From IMG/VR virus record IMGVR_UViG_3300029951_000012: a DNA stretch of 27,825 nucleotides, one strand, 5' to 3'. Made by a program: the position numbers and the translations under genes. Positions 9,093-25,407 of the stretch are shown here, piece by piece. Within the stretch, counting starts at the first letter, position 1. Each line of letters begins with the position of its first letter. The notes under the pieces were generated by a model. That model saw only the letters and a list, made by a program, of their open reading frames with translations. It did no database searches and had not been told where the DNA came from. This DNA is from an uncultured virus (IMG/VR IMGVR_UViG_3300029951_000012) (taxonomy: Duplodnaviria; Heunggongvirae; Uroviricota; Caudoviricetes).

Positions 9093-9421
9093 CAGTTCTC
9101 CTGTTGCTTCTCGCGCTTCATCTGTTCCGCATTAACCTGCTGCTCGAAGAGTCTCCGCACGTCGCCAGAGTTCTTTGCGTGAATAATACCATCATCCGGC
9201 TTTGCGGCTTGCAAACGGAGTTTTTCAACAAGATTTTCGTAGCGGTTCTGCCATTTGTTGGAATCTTGGAGATAGCCCTGCGCTTGGATGTTCATCTCAG
9301 CTAGTTTTGTGGCCCTGTCAGCCAACTCAGCCTGAGCATCGCGTAGATTCAGAGCAATCACAACGCGGCTCCAGCCCAGAAGCCCAGCGAGTACCGCAAG
9401 AATTACTGCCGCCCAGACCAT
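9092..9421 (-). CDS. Membrane-anchored coiled-coil protein
   Basis: N-terminal hydrophobic helix MVWAAVILAVLAGLLGW followed by a heptad-rich segment. Confidence 0.7.
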   Translation of the reverse strand: MVWAAVILAVLAGLLGWSRVVIALNLRDAQAELADRATKLAEMNIQAQGYLQDSNKWQNRYENLVEKLRLQAAKPDDGIIHAKNSGDVRRLFEQQVNAEQMKREKQQEN

Positions 9422-11052
9422 GCGCTTCCCCTCCGCCGCTTATTCTCTGCCTCGAACTTTAGCATCGCCATGCCCTTCGTATGCATCGGCTTGTCGCCAA
9501 GGCTATCATAGAACTCATGCGCCCTCACCGACAAAGGTGCTTGAAGGTTTGCCGTGTGCATCGAGTATGCCCAATAGCGCAGGAAATCACCTACGTCATC
9601 CGCCTTTGTGGGCTGCTTCCAAACATCCTCAGCGCGGCCCGGATGCTTCGTATCTCGAATAAGCATCGGAACTGCTTCAATCGTGTCCGTGCAGCGAGAA
9701 GAAATAAATATCAGCGGGGTCTTCAAAGAGTAACCCCCTGCTTCCTTATCAAAGTCGTCGTCCAGCCGCGTCGGGGCCATCTTTCCCGCCAGCACATCAG
9801 CCGTTTTCTTCATCATCGCGTACAAAAAGCGCCAACCGCCGATACGCCCGTTAGCCGCTTGTTCTGCCCACGGCAACCCCGCCAGCCGCAACTCTTGATT
9901 GATCGTATCCGCCGTACTGTGGCCTTTGGAGTCCTTTTCCCACGCGTCCACAGACAGAAAATAACGCTTCATCTGCTTGCGCTCGTTCTCGTCCATCATG
10001 CCGACCAACTGTCGGATTAACTCGCCTTGTTCTGTCTCCTGCACTACATGGTCGCGCGTGAGCACCCAAACTTCCACAGGCTCGTCAATCACAACCCCAA
10101 AAACTTCATGGAACAGCTTAGGCGCAACCTTCCCTCCAGTCCCCCAGCCGCACGCCGCATGATGAACGAAACCGTCGTCATGACCTGCCCATCTGGGCCA
10201 CCACGGTTGCACAAGTTTGGCCTCTTGCTGCGCCGTAAGTATCAGCTTCGATTCGTCCCAAACCCCGGCGAAATACTGCCCAGCGAAGCTATCGAACGAG
10301 CCGAGAAGATGGCCGGCGCGGAGACTCTGTGGCAGCGCATTAAGTTTGCGGCCTTCAGCCGTCCTATCTACGAATAGCTCGAATCGTTCTTCGCTGCTCA
10401 TCGCGTAGAACTGCTTTGCGGTCAATCCCAACCCACTGAACCATACGAAATTGTCCCACCCAAACATGTGCACAAACTCATAGTCGGTTGGTCGTTCTCC
10501 GCCATGAAAGCGCCGCTGTGCGAATACCCTTCTCAGGAACTCAGTACCCACACCGCCAGGATTGAAGAATAGCGCCGTTTTGCACTCACCCAAAGCTGTA
10601 TCCGGCCAGCGGTTGCAGGTGTGCATAATCTGCAATTCGTACTCGCTGAACTGCTCGGCTTGGTCTACAAAAAGGTCGTAATACTGCACACCCCAGAACT
10701 TACGATCCACTTCCTGCTGATTCTCGGCATAGGCAAACACGATGCGAGAGCCGTTGGGCAATCTAAATTCATGGTCGCCAGCTCGCCAGTAGTCGCGCAA
10801 CTCAGGCCACTCGCGCATGAATTCGTCCACATGGTTGCGCTTGACCTCATCCCACACACGCCGAACAATGCACCCATCCGTGCCGGGTCGGTTCTGGCGG
10901 CGGTCGAGCATGATGCGACGGATAGCAGCGCTCTTACCACCCGCACGACTTCCGCCTCCGCCAATCCACGTCGCAGCATCAGGCCCGGTGCGGTAAATGA
11001 GTTTTCCGAGTTCTAGTTGCTTCGGTTGGAGAGAGAGTGTGATTGGAGCCAT
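9403..11052 (-). CDS. terL: Terminase large subunit
   Basis: Walker A GGSRAGGKS, Walker B-like LFVDQAE, NPGG motif, RNase H-like nuclease residues (GHDDG, DDVGDFLRY). Confidence 0.92.
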   Translation of the reverse strand: MAPITLSLQPKQLELGKLIYRTGPDAATWIGGGGSRAGGKSAAIRRIMLDRRQNRPGTDGCIVRRVWDEVKRNHVDEFMREWPELRDYWRAGDHEFRLPNGSRIVFAYAENQQEVDRKFWGVQYYDLFVDQAEQFSEYELQIMHTCNRWPDTALGECKTALFFNPGGVGTEFLRRVFAQRRFHGGERPTDYEFVHMFGWDNFVWFSGLGLTAKQFYAMSSEERFELFVDRTAEGRKLNALPQSLRAGHLLGSFDSFAGQYFAGVWDESKLILTAQQEAKLVQPWWPRWAGHDDGFVHHAACGWGTGGKVAPKLFHEVFGVVIDEPVEVWVLTRDHVVQETEQGELIRQLVGMMDENERKQMKRYFLSVDAWEKDSKGHSTADTINQELRLAGLPWAEQAANGRIGGWRFLYAMMKKTADVLAGKMAPTRLDDDFDKEAGGYSLKTPLIFISSRCTDTIEAVPMLIRDTKHPGRAEDVWKQPTKADDVGDFLRYWAYSMHTANLQAPLSVRAHEFYDSLGDKPMHTKGMAMLKFEAENKRRRGSAWSGRQ

Positions 11053-11925: not shown

Positions 11926-12399
11926 CTATTCCTCCAGAATCGACTTCGTAACGAATTGTATAGGAGCGCCGTCCTTGCCGGTGTGCTCATTCAAAACCTT
12001 GTCCCCGTACTTGCGTGGGTTTAGTTGCCCGATATGCCTGGAGATGGTCTGCACAATCAGCGTAGATCGCGCCACATTATCCCCTGTACGCGTCTCGCGA
12101 CCATTCTTATCGCTTTCGGTTACAACTTCACCAAGTAATGGGGTTAGCGCATATTCGGTGCGCTCATCCGCAAGCATATCGGCTCGCATCTCACGCGCAC
12201 GCGCGGACTGTGCCATAAACTCTGGATTCTCTTCCATCCACTTGTAAATGGTTCCAGTGCAAGGGATTGTCTTGTTTGGGAATTCGTTTGCTAAGTCCTT
12301 GAGAATAGATCTCATACCTTTAACTTCAGAAGACCAACGGAAGCAAAGTTCATCCGCTATCTCTTGGTCGAAAGGAGTTTGAGGTCTACCGCCAGCCAT
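11926..12399 (-). CDS. terS: Terminase small subunit (Sf6/P22-like)
   Basis: MAGGRP..F...IADELC, IP..GTIYKW, ARARE..AD..ADE, LNPRKYGDK, EHTGKDGAPI motifs; upstream of terL. Confidence 0.9.
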   Translation of the reverse strand: MAGGRPQTPFDQEIADELCFRWSSEVKGMRSILKDLANEFPNKTIPCTGTIYKWMEENPEFMAQSARAREMRADMLADERTEYALTPLLGEVVTESDKNGRETRTGDNVARSTLIVQTISRHIGQLNPRKYGDKVLNEHTGKDGAPIQFVTKSILEE

Positions 12400-12480
12400 A
12401 GGGGCTAAGGATATCAGACAGCCACGAGAAAATAAATGCCATTTATCCCTTGACTCGCAGATAATTGATGGCTTATATTC
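12400..12480. promoter_or_regulatory. Divergent promoter region with palindromic operator-like site
   Basis: Rightward TTGACT-18-TATATT (12450-12479); leftward TTTATT-17-TATCCT with TGn, just before the terS ATG; perfect palindrome ATAAATG-C-CATTTAT at 12432-12446. Confidence 0.55.
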
Positions 12481-12500
12481 ACCACATGGAGGAAACAAAC

Positions 12501-12752
12501 ATGACACTCGATGAGCAGATTATAAAGGCAGGAAAGGCCACCGCACAGGCATTACGCGCTGTTCGTGATGCACGCAACGCTTCCCAACTTCAACATGGTG
12601 GGGCTAACTTCAGCAAGACTACAGACGCGCTCAATACGGTTGCTGACCAAATGGCAGAGCTTTATGAGAGGTTGGAACTTGAGATTGCAGCTTCCAATCG
12701 TAGCGAGGTTCAGGCGCACTCGAACAAGATGGAATCTCTCACATGCGCATAA
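12501..12752 (+). CDS. Hypothetical helical protein
   Basis: GGAGG SD then MTLDEQIIKAG..., 83 aa. Confidence 0.7.
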   Translation: MTLDEQIIKAGKATAQALRAVRDARNASQLQHGGANFSKTTDALNTVADQMAELYERLELEIAASNRSEVQAHSNKMESLTCA

Positions 12753-16471: not shown

Positions 16472-16633
16472 TCACTTTACCTTTATGCCGAGTTTGTCTA
16501 CCGTGCGCTTTGTTGCCCAGCCGCCCGCTAGGAGGTTGTAGAGCGTTTGTCGGGATACGCGCCGTTTCTTAGCAAGCGTCCGCAGACCACCTGCTTCCTT
16601 GATGAGTCGTTTTACCTGCGCTGATACTTCCAT
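16472..16633 (-). CDS. Cro-like helix-turn-helix regulator (53 aa)
   Basis: GGLRTLAKKRRVSRQTLYNLLAG HTH; first gene of the leftward operon. Confidence 0.8.
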   Translation of the reverse strand: MEVSAQVKRLIKEAGGLRTLAKKRRVSRQTLYNLLAGGWATKRTVDKLGIKVK

Positions 16634-16640
16634 GAGCACA

Positions 16641-16705
16641 ACTGTAATTATTTTAGAGAAAGATGTCAAGGGGGTATTGACATGTCCAATCACATCGGCT
16701 AAATT
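16641..16705. promoter_or_regulatory. Back-to-back sigma70 promoters
   Basis: Rightward TTGACA(16677-82)-17-TAAATT(16700-05); leftward TTGACA(16669-64)-17-TACAGT(16646-41). Confidence 0.85.
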
Positions 16706-16745
16706 GGGTACACGCTCAAGAACGACAGAGCACAGGAGATGACAC

Positions 16746-16991
16746 ATGGCACAAGAGTTGGATACTACCTATAAAGTCGTTAGGCGCGAGGGATGGTGGT
16801 CGGTATACCGTTTTCTTGGTGTCGAGCGTCAGACGCAAATGTATTCAACCATGAACAAGATAAAGGCCGTTGCCGTCGCCGAATACCTGGCCGAGCGGGA
16901 ATCTATCTGCTCATATTGCCACGGCAATGCTTACTTGGAGCGCACTCCATGCCCTAAATGCGGAAGAAACAAACTGGTAGTTGCGGCCTAA
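16746..16991 (+). CDS. Hypothetical protein with C-terminal CxxCxG...CxxCG zinc motif
   Basis: 81 aa, AGGAG SD, first gene after the rightward promoter. Confidence 0.75.
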   Translation: MAQELDTTYKVVRREGWWSVYRFLGVERQTQMYSTMNKIKAVAVAEYLAERESICSYCHGNAYLERTPCPKCGRNKLVVAA

Positions 16992-20621: not shown

Positions 20622-20629
20622 GAGCGATC

Positions 20630-21045
20630 ATGCTGGACTATCTTGATTGGTTGGAAGCAAGCGGATTTTATGAAGATGAGTGGAGCGAACCGTAATGGAC
20701 ATGCTGCTCAGTATCCCTTGGTGGGACATAGGAGTCTCGCTCATCATCATCGTGTGCGGTTGGTGGTATGACCGCGAACCTCGTAGAGACGAAGACTAAG
20801 GAGATTTATGTATCTCTTTCGCAAGGAAGTATGTACTGAGCCGATGGTTGGAATTGTCCACCACTGCGCAATCATGGCCGCGCTCACGAATGGCTGGCCC
20901 TACACGTTTATCTCGGAGGCCAGCAATGAACCTTCCTGACAATCCCGCAAACGACCCAGAAGACCCAATGTACGACGATGCCGAGCGCGAGATTCAAGAG
21001 CGCGAAGACCAGGAACTCAACCGCAGCAATCCCGAATACGAATAG
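20630..21045 (+). other. Cluster of four micro-ORFs (21-43 aa)
   Basis: MLDYLDW... (20630-20695), MDMLLSIPWW... (20695-20799), MYLFRKEVC... (from 20808), MNLPDNPAND... (20926-21045); each has a GGAG/GGAGG SD. Confidence 0.5.
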
Positions 21046-21053
21046 AGGACACC

Positions 21054-23305: not shown

Positions 23306-23419
23306 TTTTGGACGCAAGAAAAGCCGCCAGTTTTGACGGCATGTTTCCTGCAAAGAAATAGGTGAGGAAAGTTCCCCTCACCTGAAGTAGAAGTACAAAT
23401 CTCACACTAAGGATAACTA

Positions 23420-23716
23420 ATGGCAACCAAGAAAAACAAATACGTGATCGTTCGCACTTACTCTGCGGGCGTATTCGCTGGCAATCTCGAATCCCGCGCA
23501 GGGCAAGAGGTTGTTCTGACCGATGCACGCCGTCTGTGGTATTGGACTGGCGCTGCATCTCTCTCGCAACTCGCTGTATCGGGAACTTCTTCCCCAAAAA
23601 CCTGCAAGTTTCCTACTCCTGTTCCGCGCGTTGAATTGCTCCAGGCAATTGAAATCCTCGACGTAACGCCGGACGCCGAGAAATCCATCAAGGAAGTGCC
23701 AGAGTGGAAGCAGTAG
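23420..23716 (+). CDS. DUF6948-like phage protein
   Basis: YVIVRTYSAGVFAG...V.L.DARRLWYW.GA.SLSQLA..G signature, recalled from the family. Confidence 0.8.
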   Translation: MATKKNKYVIVRTYSAGVFAGNLESRAGQEVVLTDARRLWYWTGAASLSQLAVSGTSSPKTCKFPTPVPRVELLQAIEILDVTPDAEKSIKEVPEWKQ

Positions 23717-24033
23717 ACCAAAAAGTGGGCTCCGGCTCCGGCTCCGGCTCCGGCTACGGCGACGGCTACGGCGACGGCTACGGCGACGGCTACGGCTCCG
23801 GCTCCGGCTCCGGCGACGGCTACGGCTCCGGCTCCGGCGACGGCTACGGCTCCGGCTCCGGCTCCGGCTACGGCTCCGGCTACGGCTCCGGCTACGGCTA
23901 CGGCTACGGCTACGGCGACGGCTCCGGCTACGGCTCCGGCTACGGCGACGGCGACGGCTCCGGCTACGGCTACGGCGACGGCTCCGGCTACGGCTCCGGC
24001 TACGGCGACGGCGACGGCTCCGGCAGGGGTTAA
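23704..24033 (+). CDS. Glycine-rich (GS/GY/GD)n repeat protein
   Basis: GTG start with AGGA SD, overlaps the DUF6948 stop, followed by a terminator. Confidence 0.7.
   Translation: MEAVDQKVGSGSGSGSGYGDGYGDGYGDGYGSGSGSGDGYGSGSGDGYGSGSGSGYGSGYGSGYGYGYGYGDGSGYGSGYGDGDGSGYGYGDGSGYGSGYGDGDGSGRG
23728..24021 (+). repeat. Tandem hexamer array GGC(TC/TA/GA)C x49
   Basis: Only three units (GGCTCC, GGCTAC, GGCGAC) over 294 bp. Confidence 0.97.
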
Positions 24034-24072
24034 ACAACAGCCGCCCCAAAGTACGGGGCGGCGTTTTACTTT
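24034..24072. terminator. Intrinsic terminator, probably bidirectional
   Basis: GCCGCCCC(24040-47)-aaagtac-GGGGCGGC(24055-62); GTTTTACTTT tail on plus and TGTTGTTT tail on minus. Confidence 0.8.
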
Positions 24073-24141
24073 GAATTGTGCGGGTCTGCCGGTTCAGCAC
24101 GCCGGAAGATTGCTAAGGTCTATCGGGGAAGACAAACCCGC
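24035..24141 (-). ncRNA. Candidate ~105-nt antisense-type small RNA
   Basis: Minus-strand promoter TTGACA-17-CAAGAT; 11-bp closing stem GCGGGUUUGUC/GGCAGACCCGC that pairs fully (2 G-U) only on minus; ends in the terminator. Confidence 0.55.
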
Positions 24142-24147
24142 AGAATT

Positions 24148-24179
24148 ATCTTGACAGAGTATCGGCTATATGTCAATCT
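24148..24179. promoter_or_regulatory. Symmetric overlapping bidirectional promoter
   Basis: Plus: TTGACA(24151-56)-17-CAATCT(24174-79) with TGn. Minus: TTGACA(24176-71)-17-CAAGAT(24153-48) with TGn. Both -10 boxes are imperfect. Confidence 0.6.
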
Positions 24180-24185
24180 GTCGTT

Positions 24186-24492
24186 GCTAAGGTGTATCGG
24201 AATCACAAAACAACGTGACGGTTTGGTTCGCAAGACTCCTACCTCCGAAACATAAAAACAACGGCTTGCTTTTGCAGTAAGGTCTACTGGAAATAGGCAC
24301 CAGATGTTCGTAACAAGCGCATAACCGTGGCTCCGGGCTGGTAGTGAATCCAGCGATACCCCTACGTCCACGTCCTATGGCACAGCCGCAAGGCTAATAA
24401 ATGCGCCCCTGTTGCGAACAAGAGACTAGCCGATGCACCGAGTAAGACTCACCCACAGCACACTACTAAGTGCCGAGGGATGGGGTTTGTCT
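24186..24492 (+). ncRNA. Candidate ~300-nt multi-stem structured RNA or leader
   Basis: Nested long-range stems 24191-200/24430-39, 24305-15/24410-20, 24317-22/24401-06, 24326-30/24368-72; GNRA hairpin AGCC-GCAA-GGCT; G-U pairs favour the plus strand; no credible ORF. Confidence 0.6.
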
Positions 24493-24515
24493 AAATCTTG
24501 TTTTGGAGGAATGTA

Positions 24516-24785
24516 ATGAGCATGAGCGATTACAGAAGGCCAGCCGATTACCAAATCACCAAGCATTACCGTTGCGGTGGGTGCGGCAGAGAAATCGAGG
24601 TCGAGTCTTGCTACTCGCCCGCACTGTGTTGCGGAATGGAACCGCAATCAACTGGTGAATCATATCCCGCTAACTCCGATGATTGGCACGAGGAGCGCGA
24701 TAACGTCAACGATGAATTCAGGAACAGGCGGAGGCGAAATGAAAACTATCTGTTGGAATTGCGGAAACTATATCGTCAAGACTAA
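24516..24785 (+). CDS. Zinc-ribbon protein (YRCGGCG...CCG)
   Basis: GGAGGA SD, MSMSDY... Confidence 0.7.
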   Translation: MSMSDYRRPADYQITKHYRCGGCGREIEVESCYSPALCCGMEPQSTGESYPANSDDWHEERDNVNDEFRNRRRRNENYLLELRKLYRQD

Positions 24786-24897
24786 GGATGATGATTATCG
24801 GGATTGGCGGCACCAGGAAAGCGGCTCAATTTACTGCCCAAAGGTGCGTGGAAAGAAGCAGACCTCAGCCATACCCAAATCGGAGGTGGCAAAATGA
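24739..24897 (+). CDS. Small CxxC...WxH...C protein
   Basis: GGAGG SD, MKTICWNCG... Confidence 0.65.
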   Translation: MKTICWNCGNYIVKTKDDDYRDWRHQESGSIYCPKVRGKKQTSAIPKSEVAK

Positions 24898-25040
24898 AAA
24901 GATTCAAGGCCACAATCCGCGCGGTATGGTTCTTCTTTCGCGTCCTCTGGCGCAGAGAGTATATTGGGCGCGTTGGTATTGGCGAATCGCTTCATTGTTC
25001 GGGCGTTATCTTTGACTTGTGGATGGGACGCTTCAAATGA
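24894..25040 (+). CDS. Small aromatic-rich protein (48 aa)
   Basis: GGAGGT SD, ATGA overlaps on both sides. Confidence 0.6.
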   Translation: MKRFKATIRAVWFFFRVLWRREYIGRVGIGESLHCSGVIFDLWMGRFK

Positions 25041-25399
25041 CCCCTCTGGACATCTACAAAGCCTACCCTCGCCAGATAGCTCGCCTTGACGCGCTGAAGG
25101 CCATAGAAAAGGCCGTGGTGCGATTGATGGGAGGGGAGCGAGACGGAACCACCCTCACGCGTTCCTACGCGCTGGCAACGCTAATGAAGGCCGTAGCCGA
25201 ATATGCCCGCTCCACCTGCGGTAAGGAAAGAGAATTTATACCCTATCCCGCGACATGGTTCAATCGCGGCCAGTATCTTGACGAACCAGAGATTCCAGCC
25301 GCCACTGAGGCATCGCTAGGAATGTATCGCGGGCCTGATTGCAACACTCCCGAAGAGTGGGAGCAGATTCGCCAAAAGGTAAACAGACGCACCAACTGA
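25037..25399 (+). CDS. Phage replication-initiator-like protein, C-terminal domain only
   Basis: IYKAYPR....DA.KAI...FIPYPATWFN...Y.DE matches the YPRK...P.P.TWLN..RW.DE C-terminal domain of phage replication proteins; no N-terminal HTH. Confidence 0.7.
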   Translation: MTPLDIYKAYPRQIARLDALKAIEKAVVRLMGGERDGTTLTRSYALATLMKAVAEYARSTCGKEREFIPYPATWFNRGQYLDEPEIPAATEASLGMYRGPDCNTPEEWEQIRQKVNRRTN

Positions 25400-25407
25400 G
25401 GTCAGCG

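What the first reader, a model, noticed from the sequence alone, without database searches (positions are those of the whole stretch)
24035..24515. Candidate two-RNA antisense switch driven by one symmetric bidirectional promoter, upstream of the replication genes
Seen in sequence: (1) a 32-bp symmetric element gives TTGACA-17-CAATCT on plus and TTGACA-17-CAAGAT on minus, both with TGn. (2) The leftward start would fall at ~24141, exactly where an 11-bp stem begins; that stem pairs fully only on the minus strand, and the transcript would end at a GC-rich terminator (~105 nt). (3) The rightward start would fall at ~24186 and open a multi-stem RNA whose G-U pairs favour the plus strand. (4) A 17-nt direct repeat, TTGCTAAGGT(C/G)TATCGG (24110-26 and 24184-200), makes the small RNA (CCGAUAGACCUUAGC) complementary at 14/15 nt to the very 5' end of the long RNA. 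The match covers a single-stranded GCUAA toehold plus the 5' strand of the closing stem. A second 9-nt target, TAAGGTCTA (24278-86), sits in a hairpin loop. Established analogies: ColE1 RNAI/RNAII and P1 C4 / P4 CI antisense control, though here the two RNAs are divergent and do not overlap. Inference: an RNA-only control of replication, copy number or immunity in a phage where no CI is visible in this window.
Basis: partly seen in the sequence, partly recalled or inferred. Interest (0 to 1): 0.85.

Follow-up and report, generated by a model that had tools for sequence, protein, structure and literature searches.

The report
Phage promoter spacer with possible small RNA
A 480-base gene-free gap in an uncultured peat phage holds a terminator, two overlapping back-to-front promoter-like sites and a repeat that could let a small RNA pair with the start of the neighbouring messenger, but no related sequence or RNA data exist to show that it does.

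Summary
The gap 24034-24515 has no credible ORF, no Rfam match and no tRNA. It is the most inverted-repeat-rich 452 nt of the window. The 17-nt repeat (16 of 17 identical) exceeds every shuffle.

The two TTGACA-17-(TG)nAnnnT sites are the only sigma-70-like candidates in the gap. A second divergent TTGACA pair at 16641-16705 suggests this phage uses such promoters.

A leftward RNA of about 105 nt would end at a two-way terminator. Its predicted apical loop is complementary to the first 15 nt of the rightward leader. That leader also carries an 11-nt anti-Shine-Dalgarno segment.

Three things weaken the case:
- No homologue of the gap was found anywhere searched, so covariation cannot be tested.
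- Relatives of both flanking genes have no such gap.
- Fold z-scores are modest, strand preference in folding energy is not significant, and the co-folding gain is only marginally better than controls.

The divergent, non-overlapping sRNA/5'UTR layout is already known from type I toxin-antitoxin loci.

Verdict: a plausible but unproven riboregulatory spacer, with moderate interest.

The parts
23420..23716 (+). DUF6948 gene with a predicted Sm-like fold (context, last-but-one gene of the left operon)
   Evidence: Pfam PF22253 at E 6.6e-33. AlphaFold model with pLDDT 92.9. The listed PDB fold matches are nearly all Sm/LSm chains, E 1e-3 to 7e-3, TM 0.4-0.7.
23704..24033 (+). Gly-Ser/Tyr/Asp repeat protein gene (context)
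   Evidence: ORF and translation. The same kind of gene follows DUF6948 in 21 of 22 related loci looked at.
24040..24062 (.). GC-rich hairpin that is terminator-like on both strands
   Evidence: Plus strand: 8 GC pairs, tail GTTTTACTTT. Minus strand: 9 pairs, tail TGTTGTTTAA.
24036..24141 (-). Predicted small RNA of about 105 nt: 5' stem-loop, A/U-rich linker, terminator
   Evidence: Inferred from the minus promoter-like site and the terminator. Fold -44.5 kcal/mol, z -3.96, against z -1.6 on the plus strand. The stem-loop alone gives z -1.89.
24110..24126 (+). Repeat copy 1 (TTGCTAAGGTCTATCGG); read from the minus strand it gives the proposed seed
   Evidence: In the minus-strand fold, 9 nt (CCUUAGCAA) form the apical loop.
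24148..24179 (.). Overlapping divergent promoter-like pair; TTGACA-N14-TGTCAA palindrome
   Evidence: Predicted starts are near 24141 (-) and 24186 (+), 45 bp apart.
24184..24200 (+). Repeat copy 2 (TTGCTAAGGTGTATCGG), at the predicted 5' end of the rightward RNA
   Evidence: It is the best non-self duplex target of the seed among 2222 tiles, at -28.4 kcal/mol.
24186..24515 (+). Predicted 330-nt 5' leader of the right operon
   Evidence: No ORF with a credible start or family match. Fold z -2.37.
24242..24252 (+). Anti-Shine-Dalgarno segment CCTCCGAAACA
   Evidence: It pairs with 24499-24509 over 11 bp, one of them a G.U that forms only on the plus strand. Pairing probability with the SD is 0.23 in the free leader and 1.0 when the 5' end is blocked.
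24278..24292 (+). Third, partial repeat copy (TAAGGTCTACTGGAA)
   Evidence: family D1.
24305..24420 (+). Central multi-branch domain closed by an 11-bp helix (24305-15 / 24410-20)
   Evidence: z -2.81 on plus and -2.00 on minus.
24430..24439 (+). CCGATGCACC, the intramolecular partner of leader nt 24191-24200
24499..24509 (+). Shine-Dalgarno region (GGAGG at 24505-09) of the first gene of the right operon
24516..24785 (+). 89-aa zinc-ribbon protein gene, a conserved small family
   Evidence: 14 relatives at 61-75% identity with invariant Cys pairs. Weak match to zinc-ribbon RNA polymerase subunit P.
24739..24897 (+). 52-aa zinc-ribbon-like gene
   Evidence: Zn_ribbon_3, E 0.003, below the family cut-off.
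25019..25399 (+). 126-aa protein with weak likeness to the C-terminal parts of phage replication-initiation proteins
   Evidence: PHROG 270 at E 7e-9 and PHROG 9474 at E 6e-8.

Best explanation
The gap is the control spacer between two early operons of an uncultured peat phage. The left operon ends with the Sm-like DUF6948 gene and its Gly-X repeat partner, and stops at a two-way intrinsic terminator (24040-62).

An overlapping pair of sigma-70-type promoters (24148-79) fires in both directions. The -35 of each lies over the extended -10 of the other, so only one polymerase can sit there at a time.

Rightward transcription from about 24186 gives a 330-nt leader in front of the zinc-ribbon gene and the genes after it. 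The leader's first 15 nt close a long-range helix with 24430-39. An internal anti-SD (24242-52) can sequester the ribosome-binding site.

Leftward transcription from about 24141 gives a small RNA of about 105 nt that ends at the same terminator. Its apical loop and adjoining strand (CCGAUAGACCUUAGC) match the leader's first 15 nt at 14 positions. Pairing would pull the leader's 5' strand out of its helix and shift the fold to the anti-SD-sequestered form, lowering translation of the right operon.

What is shown: the sequence elements, their statistics, and the folding predictions. What is inferred: both transcripts, the pairing, and the direction of the effect.
For: - The gap is non-coding: no Rfam family or tRNA; no family match for its ORFs; no small ORF with a good start. 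The 83-aa minus-strand ORF hits only two internally repetitive proteins, with single stretches of 26-33 bits.
- A strong terminator precedes the gap, so the right operon needs a promoter.
- A second divergent TTGACA-17-TAAATT / TACAGT pair (10 of 12 matches each) sits at the left end of the early region.
- The repeat and the inverted-repeat load exceed shuffles and all other windows of the phage.
- The seed's best non-self target in 27.8 kb is the leader's 5' end.
- In the minus-strand fold, 9 seed nt lie in the apical loop.
- Blocking 24186-24200 shifts SD pairing to the anti-SD from 0.23 to 1.0. The co-fold MFE shows the same pairing.
- Four long-range helices carry a G.U that forms only on the plus strand.
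- The stem of the small RNA has two G.U that form only on the minus strand.
Against: - No homologue of the gap was found in INPHARED phages, PLSDB plasmids, or 50 IMG/VR records with the same upstream gene.
- Among all fetched loci, only copies of the same contig match.
- Two further records and 401 Pseudomonadota genomes gave nothing, or only 20-31-nt matches.
- Relatives of the upstream cassette (22 loci) and of the downstream gene (18 of 18 loci) have genes abutting and no such gap. Conservation and covariation therefore cannot be tested.
- Both -10 hexamers are poor.
- Fold z-scores are modest.
- Strand asymmetry of folding energy is not significant.
- The co-fold gain is -14.8 kcal/mol against -9.3 +/- 3.5 for shuffled small RNAs, and 4 of 40 controls do as well.
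- A second window tile scores almost as well for the seed: -28.0 at 16526-75.
- The single difference between the repeat copies makes a G.G mismatch in the proposed duplex.
Confidence: 0.4

Rival explanations
1. The repeats are DNA sites for a phage or host regulator. A protein bound at 24110-26 and 24184-200 would flank the promoter pair. The sites are 74 bp apart, about 7 helical turns. Copy 2 covers -2 to +15 of the rightward promoter. The protein would repress by occlusion or looping. Further partial copies in both orientations (24157-65, 24278-92, 24354-63, 24430-39) would be auxiliary sites.
For: - The repeat is significant, and partial copies occur in both orientations.
- The variable position in the repeat is a mismatch in the RNA duplex but harmless for a protein site.
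- Energy tests give no clear RNA signal.
- An HTH-like gene exists in the window.
Against: - The 17-mer is not palindromic, as most operators of dimeric repressors are (read directly).
- No copy occurs anywhere else in the window, including the other promoter region at 16641-16705.
- Spacing from the second to the third copy is 90 bp, which is off helical phase.
Confidence: 0.25
2. There is only a cis-acting leader. The rightward promoter and a long self-folding 5' UTR with an anti-SD tune translation of the right operon. The leftward transcript is a by-product of promoter symmetry, or is not made at all. The repeat copy at 24110-26 has no role in trans.
For: - The anti-SD and long-range helices with plus-only G.U pairs.
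- Divergent non-coding RNAs from symmetric promoters are common (PMC10268837, passages read).
- The co-fold gain is barely above controls.
Against: - It leaves the 16-of-17 repeat, which sits exactly at the predicted 5' end, unexplained.
- It also leaves unexplained the minus-only G.U stem followed by a terminator that works on the minus strand.
Confidence: 0.2
3. The gap is a functionless mosaic junction: a lineage-specific leftover between two exchanged gene modules, whose promoter-like and repeat features are accidental.
For: - The gap is absent from all relatives of either flank.
- No homologue was found anywhere searched.
Against: - The phage is otherwise tightly packed; even 20622-21053 is filled with small ORFs.
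- The right operon needs a promoter after a strong terminator.
- The repeat and palindrome load exceeds all shuffles and all other windows.
Confidence: 0.12
4. The gap is a replication origin, attachment site or packaging site.
For: Repeats in both orientations lie next to a gene with weak likeness to replication initiators.
Against: - There are only two full repeat copies, 74 bp apart, not a tandem iteron array.
- GC content is not low: 0.51 for 24001-25000.
- No integrase was seen in the window.
- The terminase genes lie 12 kb away.
Confidence: 0.03

Closest known systems
Divergent type I toxin-antitoxin loci of E. coli (tisB/istR-1, zorO/orzO, shoB/ohsC, dinQ/agrB)
   Same: The small RNA is encoded divergently from, and does not overlap, its target. 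It is complementary to a short stretch of a long, structured 5' UTR away from the start codon (PMC4147584, passages read; PMC5397157, abstract seen).
   Different: The target's first gene is an 89-aa zinc-ribbon protein, not a small hydrophobic toxin, and the leader holds no such ORF. Pairing is at the very 5' end. The two promoters overlap. The setting is a phage early region.
Phage P4 CI RNA with seqA/seqC, and P1/P7 C4 RNA (Rfam C4 family); recalled from memory, not read here
   Same: A phage uses a short RNA, complementary to repeated short sequences in an early leader, to hold down early, replication or immunity genes without a protein repressor.
   Different: Those RNAs are cut out of the same-strand leader transcript. 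No Rfam model, C4 included, matches here even at E up to 10.
par locus of plasmid pAD1 (RNA I / RNA II, direct repeats DRa and DRb)
   Same: Complementarity arises because direct DNA repeats are read in opposite directions, and a shared terminator serves both strands (PMC4147584, passage read).
   Different: The par RNAs converge and overlap at their 3' ends. Here the RNAs diverge, each carries one repeat copy, and the terminator is shared with the upstream protein gene.
Bacterial bidirectional promoters based on -10 element symmetry
   Same: One near-symmetric stretch could bind polymerase in either orientation and give divergent transcripts, one of them non-coding (PMC10268837, passages read).
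   Different: That class has start sites 7-25 bp apart, mostly 18, with shared -10 positions. Here the predicted starts are 45 bp apart, and the symmetry is TTGACA/TGTCAA, with each -35 lying over the other's extended -10. From memory only: the E. coli ilvY/ilvC divergent overlapping promoters have a similar spacing.
ColE1 RNA I / RNA II
   Same: A small structured antisense RNA whose loop contacts a longer RNA and changes its fold (recalled).
   Different: ColE1 RNAs are fully overlapping cis-antisense transcripts that control primer formation. Here there is no overlap, and the predicted effect is on a ribosome-binding site.

Membership tests
Rfam C4 antisense RNA / any Rfam family | Match to the family covariance model | tested here: not met
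   0 matches at gathering score over the whole window. At E up to 10 on 23950-24600, only two low-complexity hits in the Gly-repeat DNA.
Type I toxin-antitoxin locus (divergent class) | Small (<60 aa) hydrophobic toxin ORF behind the long 5' UTR | tested here: not met
   No such ORF in 24034-24560. The first gene is an 89-aa acidic, Cys-bearing zinc-ribbon protein.
Type I toxin-antitoxin locus (divergent class) | Divergent sRNA gene with roughly 15-20 nt complementarity to the target's 5' UTR | tested here: met
   16 of 17 repeat, 14 of 15 from the predicted +1. This holds in sequence only; neither RNA has been shown.
Type I toxin-antitoxin locus (divergent class) | Toxicity of the protein, relieved by the sRNA | not testable with these tools
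   Needs expression experiments.
Bidirectional promoter (-10 symmetry class) | Divergent start sites 7-25 bp apart with reciprocal -7/-11 positions | tested here: not met
   Predicted starts at 24141 and 24186 are 45 bp apart. Definition taken from PMC10268837.
Sigma-70-type promoter | -35 and -10 hexamers 16-18 bp apart | tested here: inconclusive
   Both have a perfect -35, a 17-bp spacer and TGn, but the -10 hexamers match only 2/6 and 3/6. They were not listed by the standard scan. The host is unknown.
Intrinsic (Rho-independent) terminator, two-way | GC-rich hairpin followed by a U-run on each strand | tested here: met
   Listed on both strands at 24040-62.
Hfq-type trans-acting sRNA | Seed region, A/U-rich stretch, terminator hairpin with U tail; binding to an Sm-like chaperone | tested here: inconclusive
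   The layout can be read from the minus-strand sequence and fold. Binding cannot be tested. The neighbouring gene has an Sm-like predicted fold, but other phages with that gene lack the gap.
Sm/LSm fold (for the upstream DUF6948 protein) | Small bent five-stranded barrel resembling solved Sm/LSm chains | tested here: met
   Model pLDDT 92.9. The top PDB matches are almost all Sm/LSm chains, with E 1e-3 to 7e-3 and TM 0.41-0.72. Ring assembly and RNA binding were not tested.

The most novel reading that the evidence does not exclude
The phage carries a self-contained riboregulation unit. An Sm-like (Hfq-like) protein gene with its Gly-Tyr repeat partner sits directly beside a phage small RNA that shares its terminator. 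That small RNA, perhaps helped by the phage's own Sm-like protein, switches the leader of the zinc-ribbon/replication operon into a ribosome-blocked fold. Both RNAs would be issued from one symmetric promoter that can face only one way at a time.
Probability: 0.08. Interest if true: 0.75.

Novelty: new variant of a known kind. Interest (0 to 1): 0.38.

Why it matters
If real, this would be a compact phage timing or copy-control switch built only from RNA and promoter geometry. It would take the divergent sRNA/5'UTR layout, known so far from chromosomal type I toxin-antitoxin loci, and apply it to an early operon. It would also sit beside a widespread but unstudied phage Sm-like gene cassette, which could give that cassette its first candidate RNA client. 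As things stand it is one sequence from an uncultured phage with no relatives, so its value is as a testable design rather than a finding.

Tried and rejected
- **Sequencing runs.** No RNA holder is listed. Of four peat DNA runs laid on 24035-25400, three gave short, low-depth contig pieces and one gave none. The pieces on the gap are identical to the window, with uncovered parts in between. The only variant seen is G>T at 24959, in the coding part. This says nothing on expression or variation.
- **Nearest held record.** G001 is identical to window 1635-24664, so it offers no variation.
- **Motif scan of IMG/VR.** This gave 6 single matches besides the source contig. The best, L117, lies inside a long polyprotein ORF and is a chance match.
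- **Promoter-plus-repeat pattern.** It found only the source contig.
- **The 83-aa minus-strand ORF (24120-24371).** It has two library hits, both to internally repetitive proteins with six stretches each. Single stretches score 26-33 bits, so I judged them spurious.
- **Shared motifs elsewhere in the window.** 12-mers with at most 1 mismatch between the gap and the rest of the window occur at about my rough estimate of the chance number, and none lies in the other promoter region.
- **Full-length duplex scan.** A scan with the 62-nt domain was uninformative and was replaced by a seed scan.
- **Possible second gap at 20622-21053.** It is filled with small ORFs.
- **Earlier notes of this scan.** None for this place or this sequence.
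- **Literature.** No paper holds the term DUF6948.

Full report
**Setting.** The window is part of an uncultured phage found in peat metagenomes.
- Terminase small and large subunit genes (11926-12507 and 9403-11052) and the genes after them lie on the minus strand.
- A run of plus-strand early genes starts at 16746 and continues to the end of the window.
- Just left of the finding are a DUF6948 gene (23420-23716; Pfam E 6.6e-33) and a Gly-Ser/Tyr/Asp repeat gene (23704-24033).
- Just right of it are an 89-aa zinc-ribbon gene (24516-24785), a 52-aa zinc-ribbon-like gene, and a 126-aa protein with weak likeness to replication-initiation proteins (PHROG 270, E 7e-9).
- The 89-aa protein belongs to a real small family: 14 relatives at 61-75% identity, all starting at the same Met. 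This fixes the right edge of the gap.

**Is the gap non-coding?**
- Rfam gives nothing at gathering score for the whole window. At E up to 10 it gives only two low-complexity hits in the Gly-repeat DNA. There is no tRNA or tmRNA.
- The ORFs inside the gap have no PHROG or Pfam match.
- No small ORF has both an ATG and a good ribosome site, apart from a 14-codon one.
- The 83-aa minus-strand ORF hits only two internally repetitive library proteins. Their scores come from six near-identical stretches of 26-33 bits each, and I do not accept them as homologues.
- The phage is otherwise tightly packed. The other apparent gap, 20622-21053, is full of small ORFs.

**The observation.** All four items are in the sequence at the stated places.
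- *Promoter pair.* TTGACA 24151-56 and TGTCAA 24171-76 form a 6-bp palindrome with 14 bp between the arms. On each strand this reads as a perfect -35, a 17-bp spacer, TGn, and a weak -10 (CAATCT or CAAGAT) that keeps A2 and T6. No other candidate in 24030-24530 reaches 8 of 12 matches with A2/T6.
- *A second pair.* TTGACA is not enriched in the window (11 against 14.2 expected). However, a second divergent pair with good -10s (10 of 12 matches each) sits at 16641-16705, where the early region begins. This makes sigma-70-type recognition plausible for this phage.
- *Terminator.* The hairpin 24040-62 is terminator-like on both strands.
- *Stem.* The 11-bp stem 24080-90 / 24131-41 has two G.U pairs on the minus strand, which are C.A mismatches on the plus strand.
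- *Repeat.* The 17-nt repeat is 16 of 17 identical and has no further copy in the window at up to 3 mismatches.

**Is it more than chance?**
- In 300 dinucleotide shuffles of 24064-24515, the longest direct repeat with at most one mismatch never exceeded 14 nt; the observed value is 17.
- Pairs of 10-mers with at most one mismatch number 13 direct and 17 inverted, against 2.5 and 2.7 expected. None of the 300 shuffles reaches either.
- Against real sequence, 17 inverted pairs is the highest of all 452-nt windows of the phage; the maximum among the 174 others is 12. The direct count is matched by 11 of the 174.

- An anti-Shine-Dalgarno segment, CCTCCGAAACA (24242-52), pairs with TGTTTTGGAGG (24499-509).
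- 24191-200 pairs with 24430-39.
- 24305-15 pairs with 24410-20.
- 24159-68 pairs with 24427-36.
- A perfect 10-mer, 24130-39, pairs with 24483-92.
- Four of the six single-mismatch pairs carry a G.U that forms only on the plus strand.

**Folding tests are weaker than the repeat statistics.**
- Leader 24184-24515: z -2.37 on plus, -1.84 on minus.
- Whole gap: z -2.64 on plus, -1.36 on minus.
- Central domain: z -2.81 on plus, -2.00 on minus; the other sub-domains are near -1.
- Small hairpin alone: z -1.89 on minus, -0.38 on plus. With the terminator included: -3.96 on minus, -1.6 on plus.
- The plus-minus MFE difference, compared with shuffles, gives z -0.16 (leader), -1.24 (whole gap) and +1.4 (hairpin). 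None is significant.

**The proposed pairing.**
- In the minus-strand fold, 9 nt of the seed (CCUUAGCAA) lie in the apical loop.
- A 24-nt seed scanned over 2222 tiles of both strands finds the leader's 5' end as the best non-self target, at -28.4 kcal/mol against a mean of -10.3 (sd 3.6). A tile at 16526-75 reaches -28.0.
- In the free leader, the Shine-Dalgarno pairs mostly in a weak local hairpin (probability 0.66) and with the anti-SD at 0.23. With nt 24186-24200 held unpaired, it pairs with the anti-SD at 1.0.
- Co-folding gives the same picture: 14 intermolecular pairs at 24186-24200, with the SD on the anti-SD.
- The net co-folding gain is -14.8 kcal/mol. Small RNAs with a shuffled 5' domain give -9.3 +/- 3.5, and 4 of 40 do as well.

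**Relatives.** No homologue of the gap was found.
- INPHARED phages: none. PLSDB plasmids: none.
- 0 of 50 IMG/VR records that carry a DUF6948 relative.
- Only copies of the same contig among all fetched loci.
- 0 of 2 further records.
- In 401 Pseudomonadota genomes, 12 have matches, all only 20-31 nt long.
- In 22 loci with the DUF6948 cassette, the next ORF generally follows the repeat gene closely.
- In 18 of 18 loci with a relative of the zinc-ribbon gene, a plus-strand ORF ends within about 50 nt of its start.
- The gap is therefore specific to this phage lineage as sampled, and covariation cannot be tested.
- The nearest record is identical to the window over 23,030 nt.

**Context that may matter.**
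- Earlier notes of this scan call DUF6948 an Sm-like barrel that always precedes a Gly-X repeat gene.
- I tested both points. The repeat gene follows in 21 of 22 loci, with L033 unclear.
- A model built from 30 sequences (pLDDT 92.9) matches Sm/LSm chains almost exclusively (E 1e-3 to 7e-3, TM 0.41-0.72).
- A predicted small RNA with an A/U-rich linker and a terminator, directly beside an Sm-like gene, is suggestive. The other phages with the cassette lack the gap, so the link may be accidental.

**Comparison with known systems.**
- The layout works like the divergent type I toxin-antitoxin loci. There, the antitoxin RNA is complementary to a long 5' UTR without overlapping the start codon (PMC4147584, passages read).
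- It is not a member of that class, because no small hydrophobic toxin ORF is present.
- It shares with par of pAD1 the device of direct repeats read in opposite directions, plus a shared terminator.
- It is not a member of the C4/CI family.
- It does not fit the -10-symmetry class of bidirectional promoters, whose starts are 7-25 bp apart (PMC10268837, passages read). Here the predicted spacing is 45 bp.

**Verdict.** The two-RNA switch is the best single reading, at about 0.4. Protein operator sites (0.25), a cis-only leader (0.2) and a functionless junction (0.12) remain open. If true, it is a new variant of a known kind.

Noticed in passing
window 23420-24033; loci L004-L036: A DUF6948 gene (predicted Sm-like fold) is followed by a strictly alternating Gly-X (X = Ser, Tyr, Asp) repeat gene in 21 of 22 diverse phage loci looked at. 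Many IMG/VR contigs end 100-470 nt after DUF6948, probably because assemblies break in the repeat DNA.
   Followed up: partly
window 16472-16745: Back-to-back TTGACA promoter-like pair: plus 16677-16705 and minus 16669-16641, 10 of 12 matches each. The minus one would start at or next to the ATG (16633) of a 53-aa HTH-like protein, giving a leaderless message like lambda cI. Family matches are weak and below cut-off (YdaS/Cro-like E 0.006, HTH_7 E 0.013).
   Followed up: partly
window 24130-24139 and 24483-24492: A perfect 10-nt inverted match, AGACAAACCC / GGGTTTGTCT. The left arm lies upstream of the predicted rightward start, so it would pair within one RNA only in read-through transcripts. 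Read the other way, the 5' arm of the small RNA is identical to the segment 13 nt upstream of the Shine-Dalgarno, so the small RNA's 3' arm could also pair there.
   Followed up: no
window 24516-24785; alignment A1; loci L124-L151: An 89-aa zinc-ribbon protein belongs to a small conserved phage family with motifs YRRPADYQ, CxxC...CxCG and GESYPANSDDWHEERD. It has no Pfam, PHROG or NCBIfam model.
   Followed up: partly
window 20622-21053: What looks like a 430-nt gap holds at least four abutting small ORFs (about 21-43 codons). One has a hydrophobic stretch.
   Followed up: no
window 23323-23383: Two terminator-like hairpins on the minus strand, inside a region where only plus-strand genes are evident.
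   Followed up: no
window 24207-24215 and 24255-24263: An exact 9-nt direct repeat, AAAACAACG, 48 nt apart, in C/A-rich and G-poor parts of the leader that flank the anti-SD segment.
   Followed up: no
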